A stretch of 50,726 nt of DNA, counting the filler, from Jimgerdemannia flammicorona (Eukaryota): assembly GCA_003990765.1 (NCBI GenBank). It is 2 parts of 2 records of this genome, joined end to end, with 100 filler letters (N's around TTAATTAATTAA, not from the genome) between each part and the next. Parts side by side here need not be neighbours in the genome. Positions count along the whole stretch, not along the records: positions 1 to 25,320 come from RBNJ01000850.1; 1 more part is not named here. One strand, 5' to 3'. The translations under genes and the position numbers were made by a program. Under the pieces are notes generated by a model. The model ran no database searches. It saw only the letters and a program-made list of their open reading frames with translations, and was not told where the DNA came from. Position 1 is the stretch's first letter, and every line of letters starts with the position of its first letter. This document shows, one piece after another, positions 1 to 22,900 of this stretch.

Positions 1-288
1 GCGGAGGAACATGGGGAGGTCGGCGCGGGGGAGGTCGGCGCGGAGGAACATGGGGAGGTCGGCGCGGGGGAGGTCGGCGCGGAGGAACACGGGGAGGTCG
101 GCGCGGAGGACGAAATGGAGGTTGGCGCGGAGGAGGTCGGCCCAGAGGAGGATATGGAGGAGGAGGATATAGAGGAAAGCGGTTCGGAATATATGGAGGA
201 AGATGGTTCGGAATATGAGAAGGAGGAGGATCAGTTGGTTTATAGCGATGAAGAGGAGGATCAGTTGGTTTATAGCGATGAAGAGTAA
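1..288 (+). CDS. 3' end of an acidic repeat-rich ORF (AEEHGEVG repeats ... EEDQLVYSDEE*) within the transposon; start outside window
   Basis: Frame 1 open to TAA at 286-288; followed by a GTAAGT...CTTAG intron-like segment. Confidence 0.4.
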   Translation, partial: AEEHGEVGAGEVGAEEHGEVGAGEVGAEEHGEVGAEDEMEVGAEEVGPEEDMEEEDIEESGSEYMEEDGSEYEKEEDQLVYSDEEEDQLVYSDEE

Positions 289-444
289 GATCTGTTCACA
301 CCGGTAAGTTCTTTATTTTCCTGATTTACTTCCTATTTATTTCCGATTTCATTTTGATTTCTGATTCCTAATTATGTTTCTGTTTGTTTATTCTAAATAT
401 ATCTTAGATGTGCAATATATTTTTTTTGGTGCCTTGTAGCTTAA

Positions 445-730
445 AGGCGGATTAAAGACGGGTCTGTGTCGGGTTAAATACGGGTCGGGTCACGTATATT
501 TCTCGGGTCGGGTCACGTATATTTCTCGGGTTGGGTTAAAGACGGGTTACGTATAATTCCGGGTCGGGTTAAAGACGGGTGACGTACGTTTCCAGGTCGG
601 GTTAAAGATGGGTGACGTATTATTCCGGGTCGGGTTAAAGACGGGTGACGTATAATTCCGGGTCGGGTTAAAGACGGGTGACGTATAATTCCGGGTCGGG
701 TTAAATATGTACACGGGTCGGCTCGGGTTG
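445..730. repeat. Tandem ~33-bp subterminal repeats (CGGGTCGGGTTAAAGACGGGTGACGTATAATTC)
   Basis: Directly visible near-identical units without unique spacers. Confidence 0.9.
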
Positions 731-740
731 CGATGCACTA

Positions 741-1557
741 AGCACAGCAAGTAGCCCTCATGCCCTTCAGCCTACGAGGCCCTGCCAGAGCAGCATTCAC
801 AGCCACAACCCATGCAGAAAATGATGCTGATGCCATACTGACAGCACAGAAGACCTGGCTCTGAAATACATATTACATAGATGAGATCAAGCAAGCCTTG
901 AAGGATCAGCTCAATACATTATGCCAAAGAATGAGTGAGGATCCAAACACATTCTATACCAGAATTCGATATTAGATAATCCTTACAGATTATGCTGCTG
1001 CTATCCGAGATCAAGTAGCCAAAGCAACCTTCATGAAAGGAGTCTATCCAGAAATAGCCATGGCCATCCTCTCATCACCAGTGATTCTGGATCTGCCACA
1101 GAAGGTCACCTATGCTCAGTGATACTGGATAGCCAGACACCCACAAGACTATACAATGGAGAGAGTTACAGGAGTCAGAATCGAGGCACCCAAGGCAACC
1201 AGTGTAATCCCCACCACAATGATCAATCGAAACACACCTCAGCCAAAAGCTACAGAGCAGCAAAAGAATGGTGACCCTATGGAGGAACTTGCCAAAAGGT
1301 TTGCTGAAATGACTGTCCACCTGGGAGATATAGTAAAGGAAATCCGAGGAAGAGATCGCCACCCTATTCAGAAGTTTGCCGCCACCTCAGACAAGAAGAA
1401 AGATACCTGCTATAGCTGTGGAGAAGAAGGCCACTACTCCTATGAATGTATGAGTGAAACCAAATGCAAGGCTCAACCAAGCAATGCCACACAAAACAAG
1501 GAGCAGGCCAATACAATCACCTTTGAAGAAATCAGAGAATCCAATAAAGAGGAATGA
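741..1557 (+). pseudogene. gag: Gag with CCHC zinc knuckle
   Basis: CYSCGEEGHYSYEC; capsid-like helical region upstream with in-frame stops. Confidence 0.9.
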
Positions 1558-1881
1558 GAGGCCTATCCTGCTCAGACCACTAAGAAGGATGCTCGCAAAG
1601 AACCCTACAAGAGACCGCCAGGAAGACCCAAGAAGAACCCAGTGGAAAAGTGGATGGAAACTGCCACAGAAAGCCAAGTTGAAGAGATGGACCAAGATAT
1701 TGAGCTGGAGCAAGCAGTTCTAGATATCATCTGAGGAACCACTCCAGCCAGTGAAGGAGAAAAAGAAAAGAAGCTTTGCAAGATCAAGACCTTCAAGTAT
1801 GATATCTTCAAGGATCTCAGTCAACAAAAGGTCAATGCAACCTTTGGTCAGCTTACAGAAATCCCAACATTCAGACAGCAA

Positions 1882-2380
1882 ATGACGTTTGGACTTGCCA
1901 AAACAACCAAGGAACAAGGATGGAAGATAACTGAGACCAATAATGTTCAAGAGGACTCAGGAGAAGAAAGTGAGGACAATCACAAAACCTCTGCTTATGC
2001 AATATGCCAAATCGAAGATAGAACCTTTGAAGCCATCATTGATATGGGAGCAGGAGAATGTCTCCTCAGTAAGAAGGCAGCAGACTACCTAGGTTGGGAT
2101 GTAGAAGAAGCAACTAAGCTAGTATTCATCACAGCCGATAGCACAAGAGCCACACCTCTGGGAAAGATCCGAGATATTCCCATCAAGATTGGAGGAGCAA
2201 CAATCCCAGTAGATATAATCGTAACCAATGCCACTAACTATGACATCCTCATTGGCAATCAATGGCTTCACAAAGCCAAGGCGGTAATTGATCTCAATGC
2301 TCAGAAGATGCAGATCACCTACTGGGGACAGAAGATATAAATTCCCATCAACATCAACAAAGGAGTCCTGCCTGATATGG
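1882..2380 (+). pseudogene. Retropepsin aspartic protease
   Basis: FEAIIDMGAGECLLS (D[T>M]GA) and YDILIGNQWL motifs. Confidence 0.9.
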
Positions 2381-2689
2381 AGGAAGAAAAGAGTGAGCAA
2401 GAGGAAGCTTATATGGTGACTACTCCAAAGAAGAAGAAAGTTGGATGGATGAGTGAAGAAGAATGGTACAAGAAGATTGCAGAAGGCTATGCCCCACAAG
2501 GAGTCTGTCCTCATGGAATCAAATGTACTATATAGAGTATATCAATGATTGCTACCAGTGCACTATCAGAACCAAGAAGATCTACCAGAAAAGAAGGCAG
2601 AAAGCTCTCGAAAAACAGATCAGGGAAGAAGAGAAGGAGGAAGATGATGAACCACCAGCCATCCTAAAGGACAGTGATGATGAAGAAGA

Positions 2690-3125
2690 AATCAAGGTCA
2701 AGATTCGAAAGATCCACCCTGATACAGTCTTAGCAGAATACAAGTCAGAAAATGCAGCTGAAATGGATATCACTATAGTAGAAGAAACTGTACTCAAACC
2801 CCAGACAACCACCCTACTCGCAACTGGACTGGAGATGATCATCCCAAAGAATCATGTCAGGATTCTCAAGACAAGAAGCAGTCTGGCTAGAAGCGAAATC
2901 ACAATCAAAGGAGGAGTCATTGATTCAGACTATACTGGAGAAATTCTACTTATTACTAGAAACTACAATCCTACAGTTCCATTCCCAGTCAAGAAGAAGG
3001 ACTGATTGGCACAGATGTTAATCTTCCCAATTATACAGCTAAGGATCATAGAAGTCAAGAATCTGGAGGAAACAAAAAGAGGAAAGAAAGGATTCAGATC
3101 CACAGAAAGAGGAGTATTTGCCAGC
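2690..3125 (+). pseudogene. dUTPase domain of pol, between protease and RT
   Basis: AAEMD, RSSLA, GGVIDSDYTGEI, AQMLI and RGKKGFRST match the five trimeric dUTPase motifs. Confidence 0.92.
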
Positions 3126-3279
3126 ACCAAGATCACCGAACTTGAGCATAAGAAGGAGAAAAACATGAGCAAGTATAGTTATACCATTGGAGACGAATTT
3201 CCACTCAAGGAGGAACTCAATAAAATACTCCACAAATTTGAGGATGTCCTTGCCACAGATAGTGCTCCAAATGAATGGA

Positions 3280-3485
3280 GTTGATCCGGATGAGATTCAA
3301 TTCAGATTCATCATATAATGGATTTGAATCAACTTGAATTGGTCTCGTGATCTGATCCAGATTGATCCAGATTGATTCGGATTGATCCATCCAGATTGAT
3401 CCATCCAGATTGATCCATCCAGATGATTCATCTGGATGATCCATCTGGATTGACCCATCCGGATTGATCCATTCAGATTGAAATC
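3280..3485. repeat. hAT left subterminal repeats (GATCCATCCAGATT-like)
   Basis: Short tandem motifs next to the TIR. Confidence 0.85.
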
Positions 3486-4194
3486 TTTGGTGACGTCACC
3501 CTTTTTTTTGTTCATTTCGCTCTTGTTTTTTTTTTTCTGCCGCACTTTGGTGACATCACCCTTTCCTTTGTTCCCTCTCTTTTCTTTGTTCTTTTCCTTT
3601 GTTCTTTCCTGCTGCATCACAAGCAAACAAAACAGCAGCCCTTAATTCGTATGTTGGTCCAGTCTACTCATTTTTTACCCTACAATAATCATCAAAAGAG
3701 GGAGTATTCGAGGTGGAAATGCACTCTCTGCTGACAATGTTAGATTCTTTCTCATATGGATAGCACACAAGCTACTCATCAAGAGCCAAAGGGGTGATGG
3801 TGGTGGCAGTGGTGATGGCGATGGCAGGGATGAGGGAGAATTCTGGCAATAACTCATGATAGCCCTTCGGACCTCAGAATTCACAGACCTCACAGCTATG
3901 TATGTGGCAGCCTTTTTGGAGCAGCTGATAGTAGATGTAGGTTGCTCACTCGACCACCACTTGTTTACTTGTGTTTATTTATTTAAACTTCCCCAGCACA
4001 ACCCAATTCACCTCATGCTTTTCTTAGGGTCCACAGCTCTATGGCGAGATCTGCCGACTTTATTCACAATATCTGGTCAAGATGAAGAAAGGCTGGTAGA
4101 TGTTGCAGGGCATGCCTTTAGTGGCTGAGCTGTTGAGTCAATGCATTATGTGGCAGAGGTCTCAAAAGGAACAGAAGCAAGCCTTCATGAGCAA

Positions 4195-4410
4195 TTCTTG
4201 TGCAACTCATGCAACTCATTGGCATGCAACTCATCAGTATGCAGCTCACTCACTCACACTCTTTTTCTGAAATACCCCCTAAAAAACACCTACACAAACA
4301 TGCAACCCACATGCAATCCGTCCGCATGCAACCCGCCCGCCTGTATGTAACCCGCCTGCATGCAACCCACCCGCAACCCGCCCACACGCAACCTGCCCGC
4401 ATGCAACCCA
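4195..4410 (+). repeat. CATGCAAC(C/T)C micro-repeat array inside the hAT
   Basis: Repeated CATGCAACTC / CATGCAACCC units. Confidence 0.75.
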
Positions 4411-4437
4411 TCCGCATACTTATCTCGGTCCCTCAGA

Positions 4438-5677
4438 TCAGGGCTCAGTTCCATTGGAAAGGAGAGTTCAAAGTTACCAGAGTTCAACCATGTCCAGTAT
4501 CTGATCAAATAGAGAAATTCAAGGGCAAGATGTTCAGCATGAGCAGTACCAGCATCGTCATCAAGGCTTGGGGGTCTACATTCGAATCAGAGCCAATCAT
4601 ACTTGACCAAGGGGTCCATTGGCCAGCAGGAGTAACCAACGATGAAGAGAACCATATCTTTATTAATGAACATGGAGAGGTGGTTGTGATGGTGGTAAGG
4701 AACCTCTACGGTGACAAGCTTTGCCACCACATTAACAAGATTTGTGAGGATTGCGTCAAATACTGGGTGGCAGGGAAGAGGGGGCGAAAAAAGCAAGGAG
4801 GGGGGTTTTGGACGGGAATTGGGTATACTGCAACACTGGCGAAGGGTGGGTTCCGAAATCCCCCACACTTGTCTCCCTTTTTTTTTAACCCCTCCCCAGA
4901 TAAATCATACTCTTCGCCGACATACTCTTTTTGATACAATTCCAGAGATGCATATGATTCTGTACCCCAACCAGAACTTTAGAAGTGCCATTGAAGAGCA
5001 AACTGCGCACGAGCACGACATGGCCTGTATCGTGATGGCAGCTATGATCTGGGGTTCTTTGAGCAGATTGGTAGAGCATACGGCAGGCCAGCTTGGTGGT
5101 GATCTCGGCACAGCTGTACGTACATTCTTGGTGCAATTTAGCATGCCGTATGAGGTGAGGAGCTCTGCTTTTTCGGAGTGCTGCAGCCTGGGGGGCTTCT
5201 GTGGCCCGGGGGGTTTCTGCCCCCTGAACACAAAAAGGACTGACTGGTTGCTGTCCGTTTTGGCAGGTTTCCAAGCCGGGGCTCCCGGAGCTGGACCAAG
5301 GGCAGGCATCCACCAGCACAGCCTGGCAGTATGAGATCCTGGGCCAAGGGTTCACCCAATCGTATGCTTACGTCACATCAGGATATGTCGGGCGCAACCT
5401 TTCTCTGCCCACACACACAGACAACAACGTCACCCCGGTAATGTTTTACATCCCAAAAAGGAAGGGCCCAACCTGAGAGGATAGCAGCGGAGTCTGGTAT
5501 GACCTCACCTATAGTTCCAGGGTCCCATTTGCGGCCAACATGGCCATCCTATTCCAACCACATGACCACCACAGCACTGTCGCCTTTGAGGAGAGCTCAG
5601 ACACAACAGTCATCGCACTCACAATGGATGACAGACTCATCAAGGCCTGGGACCAGTGGGTGGAGCAGTTTTTGTGA
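4438..5677 (+). pseudogene. Spliced 2OG-Fe(II) dioxygenase-like (TET/JBP-like) cargo gene
   Basis: Putative introns ~4845-4899 and ~5155-5267 (GT..CTGAC..CAG). The last exon reads ...GRNLSLPTHTDNNVTPVMFYIP...GVWYDLTYSSRVPFAANMAILFQPHDHHSTVAFEESSDTTVIALTM, giving HxD at 5414-5422 and distal His at ~5567-5572. One internal TGA; start uncertain. Confidence 0.55.
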
Positions 5678-5949
5678 GGGTTAGGCAATCTTTCGTGAGG
5701 ATTAGGTAGCCATTTTGTGCAGGTTGGGCAGTCTTATGTGGGGGGGTTGGGCTGGGCACCTCTTATGTAGCACTAGCTTAGCCATTATGCAGGGCCCTAC
5801 TGGCCCCTCGGCCCTGCTCTGTAGTGCCGCTGATGCAGCGCTGCAGCATAGGGCCGGGGTGCCCGTGGGACCCGAACCGGTGACTTCGACCGCTGGAAAT
5901 GCCCACTAACCACCAGAAGCACCCTCCAACCGCCAGAAGCACCCTCTAC

Positions 5950-6320
5950 TCTGGACTCCTTGGCAGCTTGGGGCTGCCCCTATGCCACTGGTGGAGGGCT
6001 GCAAATTTTGCATGCTCCCTCCACCTGCCCCGCCTGCCAACTGACCCCACCCACTGACCCGGGTGCTGACAGCTTGGGGCTGCCCCTTACTGCTGGTGGA
6101 GGGCTGCAAATTTTGCGCGCTCCCTCCGCCTCCCCCCCCGACCCAGACACTTGCGGCTTGGGGCTGCCCCTTGCTGCCGGCGGAGGGCCACAAATTTTGC
6201 GTGCTCCCTCCGCTGACCCGCCCACCAACCCACCCACCGACCCAGGCACTGGCAGCTTGGGGCTGCCCCTTGCTACTGGCTGAGGGCCACAAATATTGCA
6301 TGCTCCCTCCCCTGCCGCTG
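5950..6320. repeat. Four GC-rich ~90-100-bp tandem repeats (GGCAGCTTGGGGCTGCCCC...)
   Basis: Units start near 5960, 6069, 6151 and 6250, between two convergent genes. Confidence 0.9.
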
Positions 6321-6449
6321 CCGCCAACCCCACCCCACATTGGCCGCAAACTCCGGGCCGAGTCCTCAGATTTTTTTTCCTTTTTATTAATTTGAAAGGT
6401 ATTAAATATTCCACAAGGCCAACCAACTTATCCGCGGATCCACCGAATT

Positions 6450-9130
6450 TTAGCGGCCCGAGCCCCACCAAGACTTCAGACACATACATGCCCAGATTGT
6501 CTCAGCATTCAGTGCACACCTCTTTGGGGCAACGAGGTCCACCCCACCTGAGAACACCCGCTCGACGGGAGTGCTGGAGGCAGGAATCGCTAGGTAGTTC
6601 TGAGCCATATCACACAGGCTGGGGAAGTCCATTTGATGCAGCTGCATGCCCCAGTGGGTAGAGCGGTGGTTAGTTTGGTGGGTTAAATTGGCCCAATACC
6701 TGCCTGATAACCCACCTTCCACCAGTTGAGCACCTCTGTGCCCTCCAGCAGGACTATGTGGTTGCTGGCGAGGTAAATGGTAAGTTCGTCTATTGATGGC
6801 AGCTCTTCTACTGATGGCTCCCTTTTCCTCTTTCTGCCGAAGTAAATGTGGGACAGGAGGGATCTCTCAGCATATTCATCTGGACTTTGGCCAGAACCTT
6901 GCGGCGGTGTGTAGTTTTTCCAGTACACTTCAATTATGGCCTGTTTGGTTCTCTCAATGAAGTGCTGCTCCCAGCCCTGATCTTTATGGTATTGTAGCTT
7001 TAAGCGTGGGTCCAGCACTATTCGAAGAAAAGGAGAGTGAGTTTTTGTGGAGTTTCCTCTGTTTTGGAAGGAGCAATGGCCACATGCTGACATTGACATA
7101 CCTGTACTGATTGAGTATATGGCGGTATCTGTTTGAGTGTAGTATTTTCTAAGCTTGCTTAGAGCAACCTCCATGGTGTCTCTCTGATCCGGGCTTAACT
7201 GTAAATCACTGCAACCCTCCAGCCTGTCCTCAAGCTTGTCCTCTAGCTAGTCAATCAGAAGGTTGTATACTGATATTGCAGAGCTTATTGTCGGGGTCGT
7301 TTGTTTAACTATATCCTTCGTACAATTGTCGAAACACTGGCAGTTATATGTGATGAGGTGTTGTACTATGCGAAGGCAGACAAAATGAGTGTAGAGCCAG
7401 GGCAACTACCACTTACTTCCAAAACACTGACAATATTCCTAAGTACATCCCACTCACTTTCACTTAGAGCCTCAGCCCGTATTTCCTTATTGGCAGCCAT
7501 CATTGAATCTATTGGCTTTTTTTTTTTTTTTAAAAATAAATCTTCCATCATCCGAAATAGTTGCTTCAGCCGGCTGAAGAAAAAAAGGATGCATACCACA
7601 GCAAACTCCAGCGCACACTGGATCATTGCAAATGTTGAGTTTCAATGTATACAGACATCCAATATAAGCTCTTCGGGGCTAAACTGATTGCCCTACACTG
7701 CATAGCGAATTTGTCTCATCGTTGTGGGGATGATCAGACTGACACAACCAGTTTGCGCAGCTTGGAAATTATACTCAGGGCCCCTCCTCTCTCAGTTGTT
7801 TTGTCTACATGCATAAGATAGTCCTGAACAGCGAGGTTCAGTATGTGGGCCTGGCATCGCACACAGCAGCTTTCTGCACTGAAGGCCACATTTTCCTATT
7901 TGAGGCTGGCCACTAAACCTTGGAAAAATATTGAGTTGTTTGTGGTATTGTCCGTCGTAATGGCCAAAATCTGTACTTGAAATATTTGGTTGACAAATTT
8001 ATGTGAAAATAAGTAACCAATAAAATCTGGTTTGGTTTAGGACCTTCCTCAAAATGCCGACCTGACAGCAAGCCCCCCTTTTTTACCTTGGTGGTGATCC
8101 CAAGCTCCTGGATACAACTAATAAAAGTATCTGTAATGTTGTCTCCAGAATGAAGGCCAGCAAGTTTGATGAAGTCAAGGGTGAGAGATTTAAGCTGTCA
8201 ATCGAGGTCAATCCAATGACCAGTAATACTCAGAAATGAAATTGCATTGGGAGATGTCCATGTGTCGATCGTAAATAAAATTTTGTCTGCCGAATTCTGC
8301 TTATTGGATGTGAGGTTAAATTGGTGAGCTCTTTTGTATAATTCAGCTTGCAAAGGTCATGGTGCTGCCCTTATTTTACCTGAAGTATCTGGCAGAGATT
8401 GTCATGCTCCTTCCTATAGGCCTCCAGGACATCTTTGTGAATAGTATCGGCACTTGGCAAATATAAATCGTGCTTGAGGAGGCCAAAGATGCTATGCAAT
8501 TGATCACTCTCGATGGTTGTGAATGGCTGGTTTGTACACACAATCCAGCAAATAAGCCGATTTCGAAATTCTGCTGAAGAGTATGGCTAAAATTTTTGAT
8601 TAAATGGCGTTGTTGGTACAGAAATGGCCAGGCAATCGGATAAATATATCCACCACAGCTTGGATGTTGATTTTATTTGTCTCTGTGTTCTTTTTGATTT
8701 GGTCAGAGTGCTTGTCTTTTATGTGTCGATTCATGTTCGAAGTCGTATCCCCAAGCATTTTGAACTTCTGGCTGGTGCAGTTCATGGGGGTAGATGAAAC
8801 AATATCATGTGTGTATCAAAACAATATCATGTGTATCAAAACAAAGTGTCAATAGGTGTGTCTTAATTTTTTACCTGCAATAATTACAAATAACATCATC
8901 TCCTATCTTAGTACAATGTTGTCAGATTTTGGAGTGAGGATTGCATGGAAGGTGTAGAACTATCAGAGATGTTTGACTTGAAGCATTATCAGTACTGTGA
9001 ACTATTGAAGACTGATCTGTTGACATGTGTGTTTGTGTATTTGCATGTGTATGTATGTTTGTGTGTTATGTTGTGGACATGTCCAGCATATGAGTCATGT
9101 GGAGGATTTGGATTGGAGGATTTGGTTGAA
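6450..9130 (-). pseudogene. hAT transposase, intron-containing, with BED zinc finger and C-terminal dimerisation domain
   Basis: KI*QHC..VICNYC/..TSNMNRHIKDKH (BED), FTIDTWTS, AITTDN, CQAHILNLAVQ (CxxH), LDPRLK, IPASSTPVERVFS; several stops. Confidence 0.93.
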
Positions 9131-9520
9131 GGATTCAGATGAGGATTCAGATTGAAGGATTCAAATTGGAGGATTCAAATTGAAGGATTCGAATTGGAGG
9201 ATTCGAATTGAGTGATTCGGATTGAGTGATTCAGATTGAGTGATTCGGATTGAGTGATTCAGATTGAGTGATTCGGATTGGAGTGGTTCGGATGGGTGAT
9301 TCGGATGGGTGATTCAGATGGGGTGATTCGGATGGGGTGATTCGGATTGAGTGATTCGGATTGAGTGATTCGGATTGGGGTGGTTCAGATGGGTGATTCG
9401 GATGGGGTGATTCAGATGGGGCGATTCAGATGAAATCCGAGTTGATTTGGATGGCTTCAAATATGAGATTCAAATCAAACCATCATGTGATGAATCGAAT
9501 CCAGATTTGATTCGAATTGA
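9130..9520. repeat. hAT right subterminal repeats (GTGATTCGGATTGA-like)
   Basis: About 20 copies of a 13-15-bp motif. Confidence 0.9.
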
Positions 9521-9544
9521 CTCATTCGGAGCACTAGCCATAGA

Positions 9545-10913
9545 TTTCAAGGATATCAAGAGAAAGACCCCACACTACTATCATGAGGTAGATACTGGAG
9601 ACACTGAACCAATTTATCAGAAGGCAAGACCTGTCCTGCCAGCCTACTGAGAATGGCTCAGAGAAGAAATCAAGCAGATGGAAGAAGCCGGTATCATCAA
9701 AGAAGCCAGCAGCCCCTGGTCTTCACCAGTTGTACTAGCCCTGAAAAAAGGAAGCAAATCTGGAGAATTTGCCCCAAGGCTCTGTATCAACTACAGAAAG
9801 CTCAATGCAGTTACCAAGAAGGATTGCCAACCACTGCTGCTCATCAGTGACATTCTTATAACACTGGGAGATGAAGCAGAGTACTACAGCACCTTGGACT
9901 TATACTCAGGATTTCACCAAATCGGACTCACAGAGATGGCAAGTGAAAAGTCAGCCTTCATCACCCCAGACGGAACCTATATCTACCTATGAATGCCATT
10001 CGGAATGTGCAATGCACCAGCAAGCTTTTAGCAAATGATGAAAAAAATCTTCCACTATAACATGGGAAGATGGATGATGGTCTATGTTGATGATATAATT
10101 GTCTACAGCAAGACACCTGAGGAACATCTGCAGCACATACAGCAGATAATGGAGAGATTAAGACAACATGGCCTTTATATCAAACCCAAGAAGTACAAGT
10201 TTGCAGAAATCAAGATCATCTATCTTGGCCATATTATCAATCGAGATGGAACACACACAGACCCCCTCAAAATACAAGCAGTAGCAGTATACCCAAGGCC
10301 CACTACTGTTACAGAAGGTCAAGCCTTCATGGAACTTATCTCCTACTATCATAGATTCATTAGAGAATTCTCCAACATCACAGGTCCAATCTATGAACTC
10401 AACAAGAAGGATACCAAGTTCCAGTAGACTGGCAGACAACAAAAAGCATTTGACAAACTCAAGATCAGACTAACTCAGGCACCCATTCTCAGACAACCCA
10501 ATTGGACCTAAGAATTTATCCTTCAGATAGATGCAAGTGCACAGGGACTAGGAGCAGTCCTAGCTCAAAAAGAAGACAAAAAAGAGTATGTCATTGCATA
10601 TCTTAGCCGTGGAACCTGAGGGGCTGAAAAAGAATATGAGTCCTATAAGTTGGAATGCCTTGCAGTCATCTGGGCTGTGGAAAAGTTCCACTACTATCTG
10701 GCCGGAAGACACTTCACCATCCAGACAGACCATTCAGCTCTCACCTAGCTACTGAAAACTGGACAACCCAAGGGAATCTATGCCAGATAGATAACAAAGT
10801 TACAAGCCTATGATGTAACCATCATATACTGCCCTGGAAGAACAAATTCCAATGTAGATGCTCTCTCACAGACACCTTGAACTACCTCCAACCAACAAAT
10901 CAATCATGAATAA
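9545..10913 (+). pseudogene. pol: Gypsy reverse transcriptase and RNase H
   Basis: SPWSSPVV, RLCINYRKLN, LDLYSGFHQI, MPFG, YVDD, LQIDAS, LECLAVIWAV, TDHSAL, NVDALS. Confidence 0.95.
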
Positions 10914-12099
10914 GGAGCTCTACTATGGAATTATCACATACCTGGGACAGCAAAAGATGCCCCAACATCTGGAAGAATGGACACAAATAATTATCAACAG
11001 GACATGGAAACAATTCGAAACTGATAGAGAAACACTGAAGAAAGGAAAACTACTGGTCATACCAGAACACAAGAAGAAGCAAGTGATGAAATCAGTACAT
11101 GAACTTGGCCATCTAGGAGGAATGAATACATATGACAAGGCAAGAAGAACAATATGGTGGCCAGGGATGGAGGAAGATATCAGGCAATTTGTCAAGACAT
11201 GCGACAAATGCTAGAAACAGAAACAAGACCAATGGAATCAAGCCCCAGGATCAGCACACATAGAACTAGTACCATTTGCCCATATAGCAATAGATGTAAT
11301 CGGCCCTCTACCCTTGACCCTGACTGGTAACCAATATATCATTGTCATCGTAGACCTTTTTATAAAGTGGATAGAAGCAGGACCCCTCAAGGAAGCCAAT
11401 GCACAGTCAATCACTGATTTCTTCTACAAGGAAATCATCTGCCAGTTCAAGACCCCAACACAAGTAACTACAGATAGAGGAACAGAATTCATGAACTAGC
11501 TCTTTGAGGTTCTCTACAAGAAGTACATGATCCAGCACATTCGGACTATAGCCTATCACCCCTAAGGAAATAGATAAGTAGAAAGGACCAACAAAACTCT
11601 CAAGAATGTTATCACTAAGATCTGTAATAACTATGAGAACTGAGATCACTATCTGCCAATAGCATTATCTGCTCTCTGGGATATCCAACTACAAAGCACC
11701 CAGTTTACCCCTTGAGAAATACTGTTTGGAGAAGAATGTTCTCAAGGAACCCTATCATCCAATGGAGATGCTGTATGGAAACATGTGGACATGGAAATAC
11801 AGAGACTACACCAAATCAGAAAAAAGGCTGAGGATTATATAACCAAGGCGCAGATACTACAACAGAGGAATGTGGAAAAGACCCACAAGCCCTTAGAGAT
11901 TATCAAGATAGGAGACAAGGTCCTAGTGTATTGGAATATGGTAGAAGCTTCATGGTCACAAAAATTGGAGCCCAAGTAGGAAGGACCTTACCTTGTGCAA
12001 GATATAAAAGGGACCACCTTTTGGCTATGAAAACCCTCAGGCACAATAATCCCCACCACCATTCACCGAAACTGACTCAAGAAATATCATGGCCAGTAA
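10906..12099 (+). pseudogene. Gypsy integrase (HHCC, DDE core, GPY/F)
   Basis: HELGHLG..CDKC, AIDVIGP, TDRGTEF, ERTN, EGPY. Confidence 0.92.
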
Positions 12100-12587: not shown

Positions 12588-13065
12588 TGTGATGATATAA
12601 CCAAATTTGGAAGAAGGAAATAAGGGAATAGACACTTGATCGCACCCATTCCCAAAGTAGTATAGCCTTATAGTTAGCAGTCCTCGATTTTGATATTGTC
12701 TAAATTCTTAGACATTGTCTAAACTTTTAGACATTATCCAAATTGAATACCCCGATTTAGTATAGTATTTAGATATTGTCCAAATGTTTTGACAAAGTCC
12801 AAATAACTCATTTATTACTTAGCCACCCTCTTATAGCTAGCAAACTTGTATAAATAACCCAGTATCTTCAAGTGAATAAACCTCAAATCGAAATAGTTCA
12901 AAGCAAAGAGATAGCAAAGAAACTAGTAAGCCTGCAGGCAGATATACTTCGAACTCACCCACCCTCCCCTACAACTTCAAGAGACTCTGCAAGAGTCAAA
13001 ACAGTTAAGTTTTCAAGATACAGAAATCCGACGTACTTTCAAGAGTAAGCATCCGCTACATTACA
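12588..13065 (+). repeat. 3' LTR of the Gypsy element
   Basis: TG...CA ends, preceding PPT, TATAAAT at ~12848, AATAAA at ~12875. Confidence 0.75.
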
Positions 13066-13870
13066 ATACTTATATAGTTATATATCTACTATATTACAAT
13101 AATTAATACTAATTTTAATATTATTTTATACTTTTAATAATAGTATTAATATATAAAAGATTTAATAAAATAACTTTAAAAGTTTAAAGAAATGTATTTT
13201 AAAATATAATATAATAAAAATAACTTAATTAAAAAAATTACAATATTATTTATAAATAGATTAAAATATTTTAATTTATTATTAATATAAATTTAAATAA
13301 TAATAATAAAAAGAAAGAGTAATAATAATAATAATATATTATTATTATTATAAAATAGATGATTTGACTTAAAATAATTATTTTAATATTATTATTATTA
13401 TAAGTACTAGACCTCTTTATTAACTAATCTATAATAAATACAAAGTTCTCATATTATACTAGTAGTCCTAACTCAACTCTATTCTACTTTATTTTACTCT
13501 AATATACTTCCCCCCCCCCCCCCATTCTCTCTCTCTTAAAAACCACTAGTTTATTAACTATCTCAATCTACTTATTACTTCTCTCATATATCTCTTTTAT
13601 AGTAATCTCTTTAAGAGTTTCACTCCTTCTATCAGTCAGACAGAATATCTATTATTAACTCCTTCCACCTTACTATTCTTCTCTTAAGACTATCTATTTC
13701 TTATTCTTGAATATATATAGCTAGTATCTAGCTAACCTTACTTATACTACTAATGATTATCTAATAGTGAGTTACTTATTACTAATCAACTCCACCAACT
13801 GCTCTCTTAAGTTATCTTATCTACCTCACTCTCTACTTTCTTATCTTCTTACCCCCAGATAATTTCCAAC

Positions 13871-14539
13871 TATTCAATGTCTAGTTATAATGTCTGACCA
13901 GTATATGAAAGTTACATATAATCCTCAAATGTGAAAGAAGACAACCTATATATAAAAGATATAACTCTCTGATATAAAAGAAGAAAATCCATAAATATAA
14001 TTATTATTTTCAATATATATATTTATAATGAAAAGAAAACTGGCCCCATATCTATATATATATATGAACAGAGAGAGGGAGTAGTAGATAAAAATAAGAG
14101 TAAATATATATGTATAGTAAATATATATAGAGTATAGAAAGTAGTATATTGAGCAAAGAATAATAAATAGAACTAGTATAAAGTACCTAATGCTATAGAT
14201 TATCCAAATAGGAATATATACCTAAATTATATATTAAAATATTACATTATCCTTCCACTATGCTAAAACAGAAATATAGATAATGTGTATATACTAAAGT
14301 CATTAGTACTAAAGATATTTCTACAATTATTGACCTATGATCTCAACTAAGCCCACTCATTCAATATTTAGCTATAATGTCTAATTAGTATATAAAAGTT
14401 ATAACCCTCTGCTGTGAAAGTAAACAACTCATATATAGAAGATATAACTCTTTAATGCAAAAAAAGAAACCCCAAAATATAATTATTATTTCTAGTAAAT
14501 ATATTTAGAGAAAATATATAGTAAAAAGAAAACTAGCTC
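13871..14539. repeat. Pair of diverged ~180-bp direct repeats (13871-14048 and 14358-14539)
   Basis: Alignable by eye; ~310-bp spacer; position fits Ngaro B1-A2-B2 terminal repeats. Confidence 0.7.
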
Positions 14540-14909
14540 AAATAAAGTATTGTATAATGTAAAGAAGAAGCTGAATGAATATTGATAAAGAAAAATAAGA
14601 GAGAGAAGTCAAAGAGACATCTAAAGAATAAGAATATCAAAAGTAGAAGAAAGAGGAGAAGGTAAGTAGTAGTGTGAGTAATGTAAGGAGATAGAGCAGA
14701 TGGCTATATACAGCATGGAGCCATAGAACTGGTATAGTAGCCTACATAGTATAGAGAGACCATTACTGACTAGTCAATATCATAGACAAGTAGTCAGAAT
14801 GTTGATAGAGATTATTAGTGATCAAGAGAGATATGTAAATCTTAATAATTTAAGACATAAATATATATATATACTCTTTGAAAATTCTGCTAGATCATTA
14901 TCTAAATAT

Positions 14910-16423
14910 TGTAACAGTGACCCCAGAATGATGACATCAGCACAGGAGACAGCCTTTCCTTGCAAGCCACCAGATCGAAGCACAAGATGATCATACAGCA
15001 TACGAGATGAGCAATGATGACCAACTGTGAGTCATTGTGACCACAGCACAAGTATTCTGAAGAATATAAAAGAAGGATCAAGGAACTGCAGTAGCAGCAA
15101 CTAATAAGAACTACTAATTCCAAAATAGCTCAAAGACTTACCACAAATGAAATGCCTGCTACTTGCTAAATCTCAAGGTTAAGGAATCACCAAGGTATCT
15201 TGGTCAAGGAAAGGATGTTCCAAGACATCAGAAGAGCCATGGAAACCCACTCAAGAAGGACTCCTAGTGTCAACCTGGGTACTGCAGACCCTTATCACTT
15301 TATTCTCTACTACCATGAAATGGAAACAAGGATCACCATTGCTACCGAATGCCTCCAAATGTGGCAGGAGTATGAAATAGGAAACCTCCTCTGCCAGGAG
15401 TTCCCACAGGCCAGTACCCAAGAGCTATAAGATGCCACTCCCATAGATATATGTGAAACAAGGACAGCTAAGAAGATCCATCAGATCTTCAGGCATGCAC
15501 TATGGTCAATCCCCAACTTGGAGTATGTTAGAGTCTCAGACTTCAGAGACCTGTCATCCCACCATATTAATGCACTAGAAGCCAGGGTGGCTACAGAAGC
15601 CCTGTCCACTATCACCCTCAATAGTAAAGAAGTTGAAGACTTCTGGCACCCTATCCTTCAGAACAACCCAGACCAATTCCTGCAAGGATTGATCTCAGTA
15701 TTCCAAGGCCCAAGTATCCAGGTTAGACCTCTCCAAGACCCCACATTTGTTCTCTATTTTGTGGAAGAGAACCTCATTAACTGGAGAGCTCCAGATCTTG
15801 TTCCTGATTTCCCTGCCACAGCCAGATGTGATGACATCATCGGCAATGATGTCATCCCACACAATATCGAAGTATGCAAAACATACAACCTGTATAATGA
15901 ATTCGTGGATCTCATCTCCTTCAGTGATGATGATGATGAAGCCCCCATGATCCTGAACTTTCTGCAGATAATGCCAGCACCAGTATTCTCATGTAACACT
16001 GGATAATACCAGTACTGGTATTCTGAGGTGATGCAAAATTATTCCAGTACTAGCATTTTGATGTGACACTAAATAATGCCAGCATCCTGAACCTGTACAA
16101 CCATCAGTGCCAGCCCTGGAACTTAGTAGTTTTAGTTATTGGAATTTATATTTAGCTTTCTATCTTAGCAATCATTGAATTATATTTTGTATAAATACCC
16201 CTCTTATTTCCTCTGAAATAAAGTCAGTCAAGTTCACCTACACACTTTCTTGTAAGCAATCTAAGAGATAACAAGACAGTTAAAGATAAGAAGTTTGAGG
16301 ACTATAAGATCTTGGGAAGGTACTCCAATAAGAACTTGCTTATAACAAACTTGAGTTAGTCTAAGAGATATACCTTGAAGAGAATCTGGCATATTTGAAG
16401 GACTCAGCGACCACTATGTGACA
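14910..16423 (+). mobile_element. 1.5-kb solo LTR containing an ORF, inserted in the tyrosine recombinase gene
   Basis: TGTAACA...TGTGACA ends, 4-bp TSD-like ATAT/GTAT, TATAAAT at ~16190, AATAAA at ~16217. The recombinase frame joins across it. Confidence 0.8.
15152..16006 (+). pseudogene. LTR-encoded ORF of unknown function (~280 codons, two internal stops)
   Basis: ORFs 15200-15430 and 15518-16006 share one frame; motif AKKIHQIF..SIPNLEYVRVSDFRDLS. Confidence 0.7.
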
Positions 16424-19989: not shown

Positions 19990-22900
19990 ACATCATTCTT
20001 AGAGAAAAGAGACTAGCAACATGGTGACCAATAGACAATCTGAGGTATATACTATGCAGAGTGGCCCAAGTACATTCAACTGGCAATATGTAGGGAGAGG
20101 CCCTGGTCTGGGGGGAAATATGAGGGGGCTGCTGATAGGAGGATGCAGAAGGGGAGAAAGCAGTGGTGGAGAACAGAGGTCTAGAAGAGTGAGCTTTGCA
20201 GAGACAGTAAAAGAGAGACAGCAGGCATCTAGGCTGGAGGAATGGCTGAGAAAAGGCAAGGAGATGGGGTAGGTAGCAGTATATAGGGGAGTAGCCCTTG
20301 GTGGTGGAGGCAGTAGAGCTGGGGGTATAGTGACTGGAGTAAATATGATGGCTGATAGTGACAGGACTGTCAATCTGGAAAAAAATCCAGATGTGACTGC
20401 TGATGGCAAGGCTGAGCAGTTGGGGCTTGGAAGGCAGGGAGATTTAGTGGATAGTGTAATGGGCCTAGTGATGGCCCCATTACTCAAGAAGTTGATCTCG
20501 GCATTTGTGGTTACATTGTACTTCTGAGGCCTAGTAGTGACAGTGAAAATAGTACTGGGGCTTATTGCTAAGCAGATGGCTAGAGTAGCATCAGTAAAGT
20601 TTCTAAAGGGATTGGAGGGAGTGGAGGTGGGCTTTGAGAAGGCTGGGTCTTTGGAGGAGGCACTGAAGGCTGGATTGACTATTGGGGAGATATGTATTCT
20701 AATGGCACATTGCCTGAGATGAGATCCCAGGGTGGGACAACTGCTGGTAAAAGGAGTGCCCATAGTGATGGTGGTGGAGATAAGAAGGAGAGTCAAGGAG
20801 GTCATGGCTGAATATGGAGAGATGGTGGATATCAGATTCAGAGTCTGGAAAGGGACCTTGCTCAGAACTGGGGATGTTGATATCAGGATTCAGTTGGCAG
20901 AGAAGGAAGCTACTGGGAAGACAAGAGACTGGCCTTCAGTAATGGTCTGGGGGGTAATCTTGTGCAAGGTGATGAGGGTGAAGAGGAGTAAGAAGGAAGA
21001 GGACTTATTGAAAGTGCTGGAAGAGCTGAGTGGTGTATTGGAGCAGTGGGTGAAGGCTTGAAAGGCCTTTGTGGAGTTGACATATTTGGAGGTAGTGGAT
21101 GGGAAGTGGATTCAAGTAGACAAAGAGCAGTGAGAGAGGGCCCAGGAATGTAAGAGATAGAAAGAGCTGCTGGCTAAACTAGAGAGTAGACTACAGAAGG
21201 ATGCAAGTGGAATTGAGGAAGCAGAGAGTACCAAAGTGAGCATCTGGGCCAGTGAGGGTAGAGGAGTTGGGGGGAAGGAGATGGGAGAGGACAGAGAGGT
21301 AATTGACAATAACCTATATGCAGATAGTATGTTTGAGGTCTGGAAGGAGGACTAGAAGACCTCACCTATACCTACCTCCCTTATCAGGTGAGGCCTGGCT
21401 TCTAGAAGTAGGGTGGCAGAGGATGTGTCTATGCAGGGGGCCCTGAAAGTGCAATTTGGAGTTCCAGAGATAGCGAATAGGGGACAAGTGGTGGCAGTTG
21501 GAGAGGAGGAACTGGTGGATGTCCCAGAGGTATAGGATGAGTCTGTAAGTCCTGGGGCTGATACCATGATACTGGATAGAGGAAGGCCAGTAACTTCTAG
21601 AGGGAAGAAGGTGGGGAACCTACTTTGGATATATAGGATAATGAACAACTTGGCAGCTGAAGAGTTAGGGGAGGTGGACTTGAGAGTAATGAGCGATGAG
21701 CATTGGGCACAGATCCTGCAGAGAGATGGAGTAGTGATGATATTGAAGGCAGAAATCCTTGTAGTATATCTGGAGAAGGAAGGGTAAGAGGTGAATAAGG
21801 AGTGGGAGGTAGAGCTGGCAGGTATTGCTGGTGAGAGAGCCAACTACTACTGGGCCAAGTATCATGAATTGCAGCTCTGGCAGAAGGCCTGCCTAGAGTA
21901 CCAGGAGGAGTTTGAGGAGAAGGCAGATGGGGAGATAAATGAGCTATTGGCTGGAATGGAGGCTAAGAGGGCTGAAGAGGAGGAGTTAACTACAGAATAT
22001 AATCTGGATATAGCACAGAAAGAGATGAACATGGAGCAGTAGAGGATAGACTTGATAACACACCATATTTCATTATGAATAGTACAACTAACATTTTTTC
22101 TTTGAATGTAAATAGATTGCAGGACTCTTCTTGATATAGGAACATTTTTACTTAGCTGAAGGGATTGGAGACCAATCTCTTCCTCTTACAGGATATCAGG
22201 TGTGAGGATGATTTGGATAGACTGAAATGGATGAAGGAATGGGAAGGTGAGGCAGTTTGGAAGAGCAAGGTTAGAATTCTGGTCCAGAGAGACAGAGGGG
22301 AGATATATGATGTAAGGAGCTAGAGAGATAGATTGGTCTAGGGAGAGTGGACATATACAGGTTGAGAGCTGGTTACAGTGGGCTCCTATTACTGTTCTGC
22401 TGTATAGGGTGAGCATGTAGATTGAGTGAAGGGTCTTCAGAAAAGTGGGGTCCTTGCAGAGGCTGGGGTAGATATGCTGGGTGGAGACTTCAATATGGTC
22501 TGGGATATACTGGTAGATAGAACTGATGGAGGATAGAGAGCTGAGGATAGGAGTAGAGGGCTGGTGGTATAGGAGGAAGTGGAAAGACTAAGTGCTCTAA
22601 TAGATGCTGGCAGGGAGTATTGGAAGGATAGGAGGGTATATACACATTGGGCAGAGGGCCTGGGGATGAGGATTGACTGAATTTTGACAGCTAGCTATTG
22701 GGGTTTGGATGTTTGGAAGTTGCTGGAGATGGAGTGGTGTCTATGATCAGATCATTGGGGGCTGTTAGGACAGAGATATTTTGGGGGAAGTGGGGATGGG
22801 CCTGGACATTGGCACCTCAATTCCTCTTTATTAGATGATAGGATCTAGTGAGATAAGTGAGCTGAGGACATTCAACTGAGGGTAGAGGGCTGGAGACAGA

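What the first reader, a model, noticed from the sequence alone, without database searches (positions are those of the whole stretch)
4438..5677. hAT transposon carrying a spliced TET/JBP-like 2OG-Fe(II) dioxygenase
Seen: a plus-strand, intron-containing gene lies between the hAT TIRs, convergent with the transposase. Its last exon, missed by the ORF track, has N-x5-HTD (5414-5422), a G-x-aromatic beta-rich stretch, AILFQPHDHHST and a final hydrophobic strand. An earlier exon has IFINEHGEVVVMVVRN and TGIGY. Known: HxD...H is the Fe-binding triad of double-stranded beta-helix dioxygenases; fungal TET/JBP genes oxidise 5mC and are mainly described with Kyakuja-Dileera-Zisupton and Plavaka transposons. 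Inference: a hAT that brings its own DNA-modifying enzyme, possibly anti-silencing, into a genome where TEs are eroded at methylatable cytosines. Caveats: the 2OG-binding Arg is not evident (DTTVIAL) and this copy has a stop and a probable frameshift.
Basis: partly seen in the sequence, partly recalled or inferred. Interest (0 to 1): 0.85.

Follow-up and report, generated by a model that had tools for sequence, protein, structure and literature searches.

The report
hAT transposon with TET-like gene
A dead copy of a cut-and-paste (hAT) transposon carries, besides its transposase, a second spliced gene that looks like the DNA-demethylating TET/JBP-type enzymes recently reported in other fungal transposons, so it is a new variant of a published kind, not a first.

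Summary
The motifs are at the stated places (HTD at 5414-5422).

**The element.** A hAT element spans 3260-9536. It has 15-bp TIRs (14/15 matching) and an 8-bp TSD, and it sits inside a Ty3/Gypsy pol gene whose frame is restored when the element is removed.

**The gene.** It is longer than reported: four exons (4100-4236, 4442-4845, 4946-5154, 5267-5677), three GT-AG introns, 386 codons. There is one premature TGA (5474-5476) and no frameshift. It lies convergent with a decayed hAT transposase.

**The protein family.**
- It is real but rare: five clusters among about 15 billion proteins, all from metagenomes.
- HxD and a distal His are conserved 50-52 residues apart.
- Pfam, PHROGs and PDB sequence searches found nothing. 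Two AlphaFold runs failed (pLDDT about 36), so the fold is not shown.
- The TET/JBP link rests on two things. One is an ESM-feature lead to 2OG-FeII_Oxy_6 and Tet_JBP clusters. The other is a gapless 11-position motif shared with the published "PE-type" transposon TET/JBP proteins (chance about 2.5e-10; chosen post hoc).

**What is already known.** Kojima 2025 already describes TET-carrying fungal transposons, including hAT7. This element differs from those:
- 8-bp TSD rather than 7-bp
- different TIRs
- a PE-like protein that keeps HxD
- convergent gene orientation

The anti-silencing role is inferred.

The parts
3252..3259 (.). left copy of the 8-bp target site duplication (GCCACAGA)
   Evidence: The right copy is GCCATAGA (7/8 matching). 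Removing the element plus one TSD copy restores the Gypsy pol frame (..KFEDVLATDFKDIKRKTPHYYHEVDTGD..).
3260..3274 (+). left terminal inverted repeat of the hAT element (TAGTGCTCCAAATGA)
   Evidence: 14 of 15 bases match the reverse complement of 9522-9536.
3353..3481 (.). left subterminal array of 10- to 14-bp repeats (unit GATTGATCCATCCA, about 7 copies)
4100..4236 (+). exon 1 of the TET/JBP-like gene (starts at an ATG; ..LLSQCIMWQRSQKEQKQAFM.., then a short repeat-derived insert)
   Evidence: Resembles the N-terminus of P0003 (LLDFLDQQQKWWQEQRHLKAKFM) and exon 1 of L001. The GT donor at 4237 is the canonical option that keeps the frame and splices out the whole microsatellite tract. This is the least certain exon.
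4237..4441 (+). intron 1 (205 nt, GT..AG), containing 15-bp microsatellites
4442..4845 (+). exon 2 (..NHIFINEHGEVVVMVVRN.. and ..GGGFWTGIGYTATLAK)
   Evidence: tblastn with P0003 aa 92-186, E 1.3e-11
4846..4945 (+). intron 2 (100 nt, GTGGGT..CCAG)
   Evidence: An intron sits at the same position in L001.
4946..5154 (+). exon 3 (helical middle region)
   Evidence: tblastn with P0003 aa 168-227, E 4.4e-4
5155..5266 (+). intron 3 (112 nt, GTGAGG..GGCAG)
   Evidence: An intron sits at the same position in L001.
5267..5677 (+). exon 4: the beta-rich C-terminal domain with the metal-binding motifs. HTD is at 5414-5422 and the distal His at 5570-5572. The premature TGA is at 5474-5476 and the natural stop at 5675-5677.
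   Evidence: 80% identical to P0001. The two His are 52 codons apart.
5908..6335 (.). GC-rich tandem repeats (a 20-mer x2, then units of about 99/183 bp) between the 3' ends of the two genes
   Evidence: Metagenome contigs show variable repeat number here (joints).
6450..8815 (-). decayed hAT transposase gene: BED-like zinc finger, catalytic-core motifs and the C-terminal hAT dimerisation domain, broken into at least 8 ORF pieces
   Evidence: Pfam PF05699, E 2.8e-12, on 6450-6866. A zinc-finger match on 8600-8815 (E 0.0085) is below the Pfam cut-off. An in-frame stop at 8198-8200 lies between ..HWIDLD and QLKSLTLDF.. (same frame).
9100..9432 (.). right subterminal array of 14-bp repeats (about 20 copies)
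9522..9536 (-). right terminal inverted repeat
9537..9544 (.). right copy of the target site duplication (GCCATAGA)

Best explanation
Positions 3260-9536 are one decayed copy of an autonomous-type hAT DNA transposon with an 8-bp TSD, inserted into the pol gene of a Ty3/Gypsy retrotransposon.

Besides its transposase (minus strand), the element carries a second gene on the plus strand. It has four exons (4100-5677) and is convergent with the transposase. It encodes a protein of about 386 residues from a rare eukaryotic (probably fungal) family.

The family's C-terminal domain has a conserved HxD and a distal His 50-52 residues apart. It shares a collinear set of motifs with the 'PE-type' TET/JBP-like dioxygenases that Kojima (2025) found in other fungal DNA transposons.

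Most likely mechanism (inferred, not shown): an Fe(II)-dependent dioxygenase oxidises methylated bases, most probably 5-methylcytosine, on the element's own DNA or genome-wide. This would counter methylation-based silencing and keep the transposase expressed.

This particular copy is dead. The cargo gene has one nonsense codon and Ser at two otherwise invariant Gly positions. The transposase has at least one in-frame stop and several frame breaks.
For: **hAT identity and boundaries**
- TIRs match 14/15, the TSD is 8 bp, and the host Gypsy frame is restored on excision.
- The hAT dimerisation domain scores E 2.8e-12.
- Subterminal repeat arrays lie at both ends.

**The gene is real**
- Three GT-AG introns give a 1161-nt frame with one internal stop.
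- The spliced protein aligns to P0003 at 31.6% identity over 263 residues, pairwise E 1e-42.
- The three intron positions seen in L001, exon 1/2 junction included, match those of the window gene. L001 is a contig from an AT-rich organism (34% GC).

**Family conservation**
- A phmmer search of 1.84 billion representatives gave 4 true hits and 3 low-complexity ones.
- In the 6-row alignment H, D and the distal H are invariant, together with 14 other columns.
- HxD is present in 4 of 5 cluster representatives and in 11 of 13 members of the P0004 cluster that span the site. The distal HG[ST] lies 50-52 residues downstream.

**Link to TET/JBP**
- ESM-feature search with P0003: the best cluster scores 0.96 with 209/256 shared features. 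It is Basidiomycota, with PF20515 2OG-FeII_Oxy_6 on 15% of members. Rank 11 is a Tet_JBP cluster at 0.91.
- I built a gapless 11-position pattern from residues common to all six Pezizomycete PE-type sequences shown in Table S1 of PMC12730594 (the match to those six was checked by eye).
- That pattern matches 4 of 5 family cluster representatives and L001. It gave 0 hits in 101,448 six-frame residues of the window and 0 in 300,000 shuffles. The analytic chance is 2.5e-10 per domain.
- The paper reports that PE-type models resemble CMD1, NgTET and CcTET structures (section 3.2.3).

**The cargo belongs to a repeated element**
- Contigs at 80-99% likeness from 4 soil-metagenome runs (3 studies) cover all 30 bins of the element in two runs and 29 of 30 in the other two. 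The gene, the transposase and the non-coding parts between them are all covered.
- All contigs over position 5476 read TGG.

**Genome context**
- CpG observed/expected is 0.45 in the element, with CA and TG in excess.
Against: **No statistical homology to any curated dioxygenase family**
- Pfam found nothing at E up to 10 for four homologues and the window exons.
- PHROGs gave only chance-level rows.
- PDB sequences gave no TET or AlkB chain with single sequences or profiles.

**The DSBH fold is not shown**
- Both AlphaFold2 models have mean pLDDT 36-37.

**The motif comparison has limits**
- The pattern was chosen after seeing both sets, so its p-value is optimistic.
- It misses P0008 and the window's own copy.

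**Residue-level problems**
- The PE-type hallmark HxE is not met; this family has HxD.
- The arginine that binds the C5 carboxylate of 2OG in TET2 and NgTET1 (PMC7854593, passages) has no conserved counterpart. The strand after the distal His carries H, N, T, V or G at the aligned place (alignment to TETs by eye only).
- The ESM recognition value (2142) is below the tool's 2300 mark.

**Linkage is thin**
- Cargo and transposase are seen on one molecule only in this window.
- The metagenome contigs are too short to bridge them.
- The two related loci L001 and L002 hold no hAT transposase within 3.7 kb.
Confidence: 0.6

Rival explanations
1. The second gene encodes an accessory protein of the element that is not a TET/JBP-type nucleic-acid dioxygenase. 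It could be another kind of 2OG/Fe oxygenase, a cupin-like binding protein, or a catalytically dead relative. On this view the similarity to PE-type proteins reflects a shared transposon-borne family whose own TET assignment is weak.
For: - No hit to Tet_JBP, 2OG-FeII_Oxy families or any TET/AlkB structure by sequence.
- No confident model.
- The canonical 2OG arginine is not conserved.
- The paper itself gives HHpred E-values of only 1.4 (CMD1) and 19 (NgTET) for PE-type proteins.
Against: - HxD and the distal His are invariant in the alignment, with a spacing of 50-52. In CMD1 the triad is H345, D347 and H397.
- The best ESM-feature clusters that carry a Pfam family (ranks 1 and 11) carry 2OG-oxygenase families.
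- The paper reports structural matches of PE-type AlphaFold DB models to CMD1, NgTET and CcTET at E below 1e-5.
Confidence: 0.22
2. The gene is not a stable cargo of this hAT family. Either a separate small element (for example a non-autonomous Helitron, the usual carrier of PE-type genes in Pezizales) inserted into this hAT lineage, or the hAT picked up a host gene by transduplication and the gene plays no part in transposition.
For: [quoted passage not shown]
- L001 and L002 carry the homologue without a hAT transposase nearby.
- No single contig links the gene and the transposase outside the window.
Against: - No second pair of TIRs or TSDs, and no other transposon protein, was found between 3480 and 6400.
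- Metagenome contigs related to the element cover the non-coding stretches on both sides of the gene as well as the gene and the transposase, in 4 runs of 3 studies. The listed loose ends (24 of 265 shown) mark no common junction.
- The gene is full length with its own introns and only one nonsense codon, which is private to this copy.
- The paper describes frequent passage of TET genes between transposon superfamilies without boundary signatures.
Confidence: 0.12
3. The exons are chance open frames in transposon DNA, and the HxD...H motif is coincidence.
For: Short motifs such as HxD are common. Pfam finds nothing.
Against: - Homologues exist at E 5e-68, 3e-28, 2e-12 and 8.5e-8.
- A 374-aa homologue is collinear with three exons.
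- The three intron positions seen in L001 match those of the window gene.
Confidence: 0.01

Closest known systems
PE-type TET/JBP-like dioxygenases of fungal DNA transposons (Kojima 2025, PMC12730594; Pezizomycetes and Agaricales)
   Same: - Transposon-borne.
- Invisible to standard TET profiles. The paper gives HHpred E 1.4 to CMD1. Here there is no Pfam hit.
- Collinear motifs from the N-terminal hairpin (..I[FIV].D....E[IV]V..V..) to the C-terminal core.
- The core stretch [FW][FY]...YG..[IV]....[ND]..[VI].[WF].....HG[TS] has identical spacing in both.
- An Arg lies 15-16 residues after the first His in both (by eye).
- Both lack the ..R.G.S.. strand motif seen in PU and AG types (by eye).
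   Different: - This family keeps HxD. [quoted passage not shown] [quoted passage not shown]
- I computed no alignment score, because the PE sequences could not be entered into the tools.
TET+ hAT7 transposons of Puccinia (Kojima 2025)
   Same: A hAT-superfamily element that carries a TET/JBP-type gene in addition to its transposase. The anti-silencing role is proposed in both cases.
   Different: - hAT7 makes 7-bp TSDs and its ends begin CAACGGTGGG. This element has an 8-bp TSD and ends beginning TAGTGCTCC.
- The hAT7 cargo is PU type, with ..GG.MWA.GWRK....H.D....HCT.. and ..TRLG.S.Q... None of these motifs is present here.
- In the hAT7 families described, the TET gene lies upstream of the transposase in the same orientation. 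Here the two genes are convergent.
Structurally characterised TET/JBP enzymes: human TET2, Naegleria NgTET1, Coprinopsis CcTET, Chlamydomonas CMD1
   Same: - An HxD...H triad. In CMD1 it is H345, D347 and H397, a 52-residue spacing (PMC7854593), against 50-52 here.
- The distal His is followed by Gly and a small residue.
   Different: - No detectable sequence similarity by phmmer or hmmsearch.
- The two arginines that hold 2OG in TET2 and NgTET1 are not evident.
- The fold is not demonstrated here.
Ac-like hAT transposons with 8-bp TSDs
   Same: 8-bp TSD, short TIRs, subterminal repeat arrays, and a transposase with a C-terminal hAT dimerisation domain.
   Different: The element is 6.3 kb long and carries a second, unrelated gene of about 1.6 kb plus a tandem-repeat spacer of about 430 bp.

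Membership tests
hAT superfamily DNA transposon | 8-bp target site duplication | tested here: met
   GCCACAGA / GCCATAGA flank the element, and excision restores the Gypsy pol frame.
hAT superfamily DNA transposon | short terminal inverted repeats | tested here: met
   15 bp, 14/15 complementary.
hAT superfamily DNA transposon | transposase with the hAT C-terminal dimerisation domain | tested here: met
   PF05699, E 2.8e-12, 46.7 bits against a cut-off of 21.4. The gene is broken.
hAT7 group (Kojima 2025) | 7-bp TSD and termini beginning CAACGGTGGG | tested here: not met
   The TSD is 8 bp and the termini begin TAGTGCTCC.
TET/JBP family (Pfam PF12851) and 2OG-FeII_Oxy_6 (PF20515) | match to the family profile | tested here: not met
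   No Pfam family at E up to 10 for P0001-P0004 or for the window exons. There is only an ESM-feature lead to clusters carrying these families on 15-16% of members.
TET/JBP and 2OG-Fe(II) dioxygenases | 2-His-1-carboxylate triad HxD/E...H | tested here: met
   H, D and the distal H are invariant in alignment A6. The spacing is 50-52. In the window they are at 5414-5422 and 5570-5572.
TET/JBP and 2OG-Fe(II) dioxygenases | double-stranded beta-helix fold | tested here: inconclusive
   Two AlphaFold2 runs gave mean pLDDT 36.2 and 36.7. Foldseek on the second model gave no match at E 0.001 or better.
TET/JBP and 2OG-Fe(II) dioxygenases | conserved Arg after the distal His that binds the C5 carboxylate of 2OG | tested here: not met
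   No conserved Arg lies 10-17 residues after the distal His. An Arg at +20/+21 is present in 5 of 6 rows of A2, with P0004 lacking it; in A6, L001 lacks it. Equivalence to TET2 R1896 cannot be judged without a structure.
PE-type TET/JBP-like proteins (Kojima 2025) | collinear conserved core between the metal ligands | tested here: met
   The pattern taken from six PE sequences matches 4 of 5 cluster representatives and L001. Controls gave 0 hits. The pattern was chosen post hoc.
PE-type TET/JBP-like proteins (Kojima 2025) | HxE in place of HxD (the stated hallmark) | tested here: not met
   HTD or HVD in all members that keep the site. Two members of one cluster have HVN.
TET/JBP dioxygenases | oxidation of 5mC (or T or 6mA) in DNA | not testable with these tools
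   Needs biochemistry.

The most novel reading that the evidence does not exclude
The family is a fourth, so far unclassified type of transposon-borne TET/JBP-like enzyme. It keeps HxD, and neither of the two arginines that hold 2-oxoglutarate in canonical TETs is evident in it.

It is common in the repeats of soil fungi but absent from annotated proteomes.

Like the algal TET homologue CMD1, it may use a co-substrate other than 2OG, such as ascorbate. It would then write a different base modification on transposon DNA, not plain 5hmC.
Probability: 0.08. Interest if true: 0.85.

Novelty: new variant of a known kind. Interest (0 to 1): 0.42.

Why it matters
Transposons that carry their own TET/JBP-type enzyme are a proposed counter-defence against DNA-methylation silencing in fungi. 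The published catalogue (Kojima 2025) lists three enzyme types and eleven carrier lineages.

This element adds three things:
- a different hAT lineage (8-bp TSD)
- a protein family that sits next to the PE type but keeps HxD
- a convergent two-gene layout

The family escapes Pfam. It appears only as unnamed metagenomic fragments among about 15 billion predicted proteins. That suggests such cargo genes are systematically lost when repeats are masked before gene calling.

The missing 2OG arginines, in a family that otherwise conserves its metal ligands, make it a candidate for testing unusual co-substrate use.

Tried and rejected
**Searches that gave nothing**
- Pfam on the window exons and on four homologues: 0 families at E up to 10.
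- PHROGs: only chance-level rows.
- PDB sequences: nothing relevant with two profiles and two single proteins.

**Structure**
- AlphaFold2 on full-length P0003 and on the C-terminal domain, each with 6 rows: mean pLDDT 36.2 and 36.7, unusable.
- Foldseek on the second model: no match at E 0.001 or better. The listed rows (herpesvirus gB and others) are meaningless for such a model.
- I did not send either model to the other fold libraries.

**Other protein searches**
- ESM Atlas with exon 2 alone: no usable hit.
- Word-indexed protein search, 'longer' mode, with exon 4: none.
- The same search with P0003: only P0008.
- The same search with a 9-row alignment: only P0003 and P0001 among 7994 scored candidates.

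**Genome and related loci**
- The window's own genome is not held, so other genomic copies of the hAT could not be collected.
- The genome search on L001 and L002 was not possible.
- The first related-loci run on the wide alignment had no conserved stretch. A narrower alignment gave two loci.
- Earlier findings of this scan: nothing.
- Rfam on the whole window: 0 matches.
- Pfam on the flanking ORFs of L001: 0 families.

**Sequencing runs**
- Only soil metagenomes with small shares (0.05-0.17) hold parts of the element.
- I draw no habitat or host from that. I used the laid contigs only for what they cover and read.
- Bins without cover in X4 and X6 (one each) are not interpreted.

**Readings rejected**
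- A frameshift in the cargo gene.
- Membership in hAT7 (against 46, 81).
- A PU-type cargo. Its motifs GWRK, HCT and TRLG.S.Q are absent.
- A second copy of the gene or of the hAT elsewhere in the window.

- Aligning the family against the PE-type protein sequences printed in Table S1 of PMC12730594. That sequence is neither from the window nor a stored locus or protein, so I did not enter it. The comparison was made by eye and with a short pattern.
Full report
**1. What is in the sequence**

The window region 1-12,000 is a Ty3/Gypsy retrotransposon with protease, dUTPase and reverse transcriptase (Pfam). Its pol frame stops at 3284 and resumes near 9545.

The interruption is a 6277-bp element at 3260-9536.
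- Its ends are TAGTGCTCCAAATGA and the inverted TAGTGCTCCGAATGA (14/15 matching).
- It is flanked by GCCACAGA / GCCATAGA.
- Removing the element and one flank copy joins ..KFEDVLATD to FKDIKRKTPHYYHEVDTGD.. in frame.
- Arrays of 14-bp repeats lie just inside both ends.

On the minus strand, ORF pieces between 8815 and 6450 carry hAT transposase features. The C-terminal piece matches Dimer_Tnp_hAT at E 2.8e-12.

The transposase is broken. Two pieces in the same frame are separated by a stop at 8198-8200 (..HWIDLD* QLKSLTLDF..), and other pieces lie in other frames. Which of those other breaks are introns was not resolved.

**2. The second gene**

The gene model can be completed without any frameshift.
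- Exons are 4100-4236, 4442-4845, 4946-5154 and 5267-5677.
- Introns are 205, 100 and 112 nt, all GT..AG.
- This gives 1161 nt, or 386 codons, with a single internal TGA at codon 320 (5474-5476).
- Exon 1 is the least certain part. It resembles the N-terminus of homologues but contains a short repeat-derived insert.

The spliced product aligns with a 374-residue metagenomic protein (P0003) at 31.6% identity over 263 residues (pairwise E 1e-42). tblastn with P0003 finds the three main exons in order, and nothing else in the window at E below 1.

**3. The family**

phmmer with exon 4 against 1.84 billion representatives gave seven rows. Four are true relatives (E 5e-68, 3e-28, 2e-12, 8.5e-8). 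Three are repetitive proteins. A fifth cluster (P0008) came from a second search.

All five clusters come from ENA, JGI or Logan metagenome assemblies. Four have no name from any source, and nine of the 28 members of the P0004 cluster are named only 'hypothetical protein'. One cluster has 28 members and the others have one each.

Two metagenome contigs, L001 and L002 (34% GC, 99% identical to each other), hold a full gene. Its three introns sit at the same places as in the window gene, the exon 1/2 junction included. L002 has two in-frame stops.

In the six-row alignment the invariant columns include H and D of HxD, the distal H and an Arg 15 residues after the first His. The two His are 50-52 residues apart in every member that has both. 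Within the 28-member cluster, 13 listed members span the site: 11 have HVD and 2 have HVN.

The window copy has Ser at two Gly positions that are invariant in the other five rows (YSS for YG., HST for HG.). This fits a decaying copy.

**4. Is it a TET/JBP-like dioxygenase?**

Direct tests failed.
- No Pfam family at E up to 10.
- No meaningful PHROG.
- No PDB chain by sequence or profile.
- Two AlphaFold2 models with mean pLDDT about 36. A Foldseek run on one of them returned nothing usable.

Indirect evidence is positive.

(a) The ESM-feature search with P0003 put first a Basidiomycota cluster. It scored 0.96 with 209 of 256 shared features, and 15% of its members carry PF20515 2OG-FeII_Oxy_6. 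At rank 11 it put a Tet_JBP cluster at 0.91. The tool's recognition value (2142) is below its own 2300 mark, so this is a lead only.

(b) The literature search found Kojima 2025 (PMC12730594). I read:
- the abstract
- sections 2, 3.2, 3.3 and 3.4
- passages of 3.1 and 4
- part 12 of 19 of the supplement
- text-search passages

The paper defines three types of transposon-borne TET/JBP proteins: PU, AG and PE. The PE type is 'very distantly related' to known TETs (HHpred E 1.4 to CMD1). The paper says it was recognised through AlphaFold DB models that resemble CMD1, NgTET and CcTET.

The six Pezizomycete PE sequences printed in Table S1 are collinear, by eye, with the present family in the following blocks:
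- an N-terminal hairpin (NYIFVD..EIVGLV.RN against NYIVLD..EIVLVVW and NHIFINEHGEVVVMVVRN)
- a TG-x5-GY block
- a helix (FAL.WNM..RL against SLLFATTSRML)
- LPRMD against LPRLD
- [FY]EF.Q with the first His exactly 23 residues later
- an Arg at +15/+16
- a core with identical spacing up to HG[TS]

To put a number on the last block, I wrote a pattern using only positions common to all six PE sequences, widening three classes. It matches 4 of 5 cluster representatives and L001. It does not match P0008 (Leu at one [VI] position) or the window's own mutated copy. It gave 0 hits in 101,448 six-frame residues of the window and 0 in 300,000 shuffles. The analytic expectation is 2.5e-10 per domain.

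The pattern was chosen after seeing both sets. The figure is therefore optimistic, but the margin is large.

The family is clearly not PU type. The hAT7-borne PU proteins have GG.MWA.GWRK, HCT and TRLG.S.Q motifs, which are absent here. It also does not meet the PE hallmark HxE.

I therefore place it beside the PE type without filing it as a member.

**5. The missing arginine**

In TET2 and NgTET1 two arginines hold 2OG.

In the present family no Arg is conserved 10-17 residues after the distal His. In the PE sequences I saw, the corresponding strand reads ..HQIGMSI.. or ..QQLGLSI.. (by eye).

Conserved basic residues that might substitute are:
- the invariant Arg 15 residues after the first His
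- an Arg 7 residues before the first His (5 of 6 rows)
- an Arg 20-21 residues after the distal His (5 of 6 rows)

Without a structure this stays open.

**6. Does the gene belong to the hAT?**

In the window it lies inside the TIR/TSD boundaries. No second set of termini and no other transposon protein lies around it.

The source genome is not held. As a substitute I laid Logan contigs of four soil-metagenome runs (three studies) on 3260-9536 at 80% likeness or more.
- 2237, 109, 171 and 75 contigs were laid.
- They cover 30, 30, 29 and 29 of 30 bins. The covered parts include the non-coding stretches on both sides of the gene, the gene and the transposase.
- The differences are almost all transitions.
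- All contigs over 5476 read G, so the stop is private to the window copy (27, 3, 5 and 1 contigs).

The contigs are short (the longest listed piece is 621 nt). None links the gene and the transposase, and depth cannot be used as copy number. L001 and L002 contain no hAT transposase.

The association is therefore shown for one molecule and is compatible with the metagenome data. It is not proven at family level.

**7. How it probably works**

Shown:
- a two-gene hAT
- conserved metal ligands in the cargo protein
- CpG depletion of the element (observed/expected 0.45, with CA 1.39 and TG 1.32) and of the whole window (0.44)
- among the 40 best-supported differences from the metagenome contigs, 30 where the window has T or A and the contigs have C or G

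Inferred:
- the host methylates CpG in repeats
- the cargo enzyme oxidises 5mC (or another methylated base) and so relieves silencing of the element, as proposed for the published TET+ transposons (section 4.2 passages)

This copy can do none of it.

**8. Novelty**

A hAT carrying a TET/JBP gene is in print (hAT7 of Puccinia, PU type). What differs here:
- the hAT lineage (8-bp TSD, different termini)
- the protein type (PE-like with HxD)
- the convergent layout, where the described hAT7 families have the gene upstream in the same orientation
- the fact that the family is unannotated apart from unnamed or 'hypothetical protein' metagenome fragments

My claim that this subtype is not described rests on the searches, and on the parts of one supplement that I read. 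It is not a full survey.

Noticed in passing
window 939-3259 and 9545-about 12100: The host of the hAT insertion is a Ty3/Gypsy retrotransposon whose pol carries a dUTPase domain between the protease and the reverse transcriptase (Pfam dUTPase, E 8e-14).
   Followed up: partly
window 3486-3504 and 3546-3564: Two copies of TTTGGTGAC[G/A]TCACCCTTT lie 60 bp apart, about 540-600 bp upstream of the cargo gene's ATG. The first contains the palindrome TGACGTCA. They could be promoter or transposase-binding sites.
   Followed up: no
window 20000-25000: About 5 kb is strongly cytosine-poor on the plus strand (C 13%, G 34%; GC skew about 0.35-0.5). There are no tandem repeats and no Pfam hit on its ORFs. 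It looks like strand-asymmetric C-to-T erosion of an old repeat.
   Followed up: partly
window 13001-15000: A very AT-rich stretch (GC 22-28%) in a window that averages about 42% GC.
   Followed up: no
window 40476-41938 (+): Two ORF pieces match the second beta-propeller of RIC1 (E 2e-20 and 1e-4, both below the Pfam cut-off for the whole domain). This is probably an exon-split host gene. A weak Mrr_cat match lies at 45401-46192.
   Followed up: no
window 8198-8200 (-): An in-frame stop in the hAT transposase sits at the place where hAT transposases, as I recall, usually have Trp (..HWIDLD*QLKSL..). If so, it is the same Trp-to-stop change as in the cargo gene at 5474-5476.
   Followed up: partly
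window 5267-5677: The window copy has Ser at two Gly positions that are invariant in the five other aligned relatives (YSS for YG., HST for HG.). Both would be G-to-A changes in the first codon base.
   Followed up: partly
L001 1-2716 and L002 156-2870: Two contigs from different metagenome records are 99% identical over 2.7 kb. L002 has two in-frame stops in the homologous gene. They are copies or alleles of a gene that also decays in that AT-rich organism. The downstream ORFs (L001 2320-2945) have no Pfam match.
   Followed up: partly
window 5908-6335: The GC-rich tandem repeat between the two genes varies in unit number among the metagenome contigs (joints that skip or repeat 58-277 bases).
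   Followed up: no
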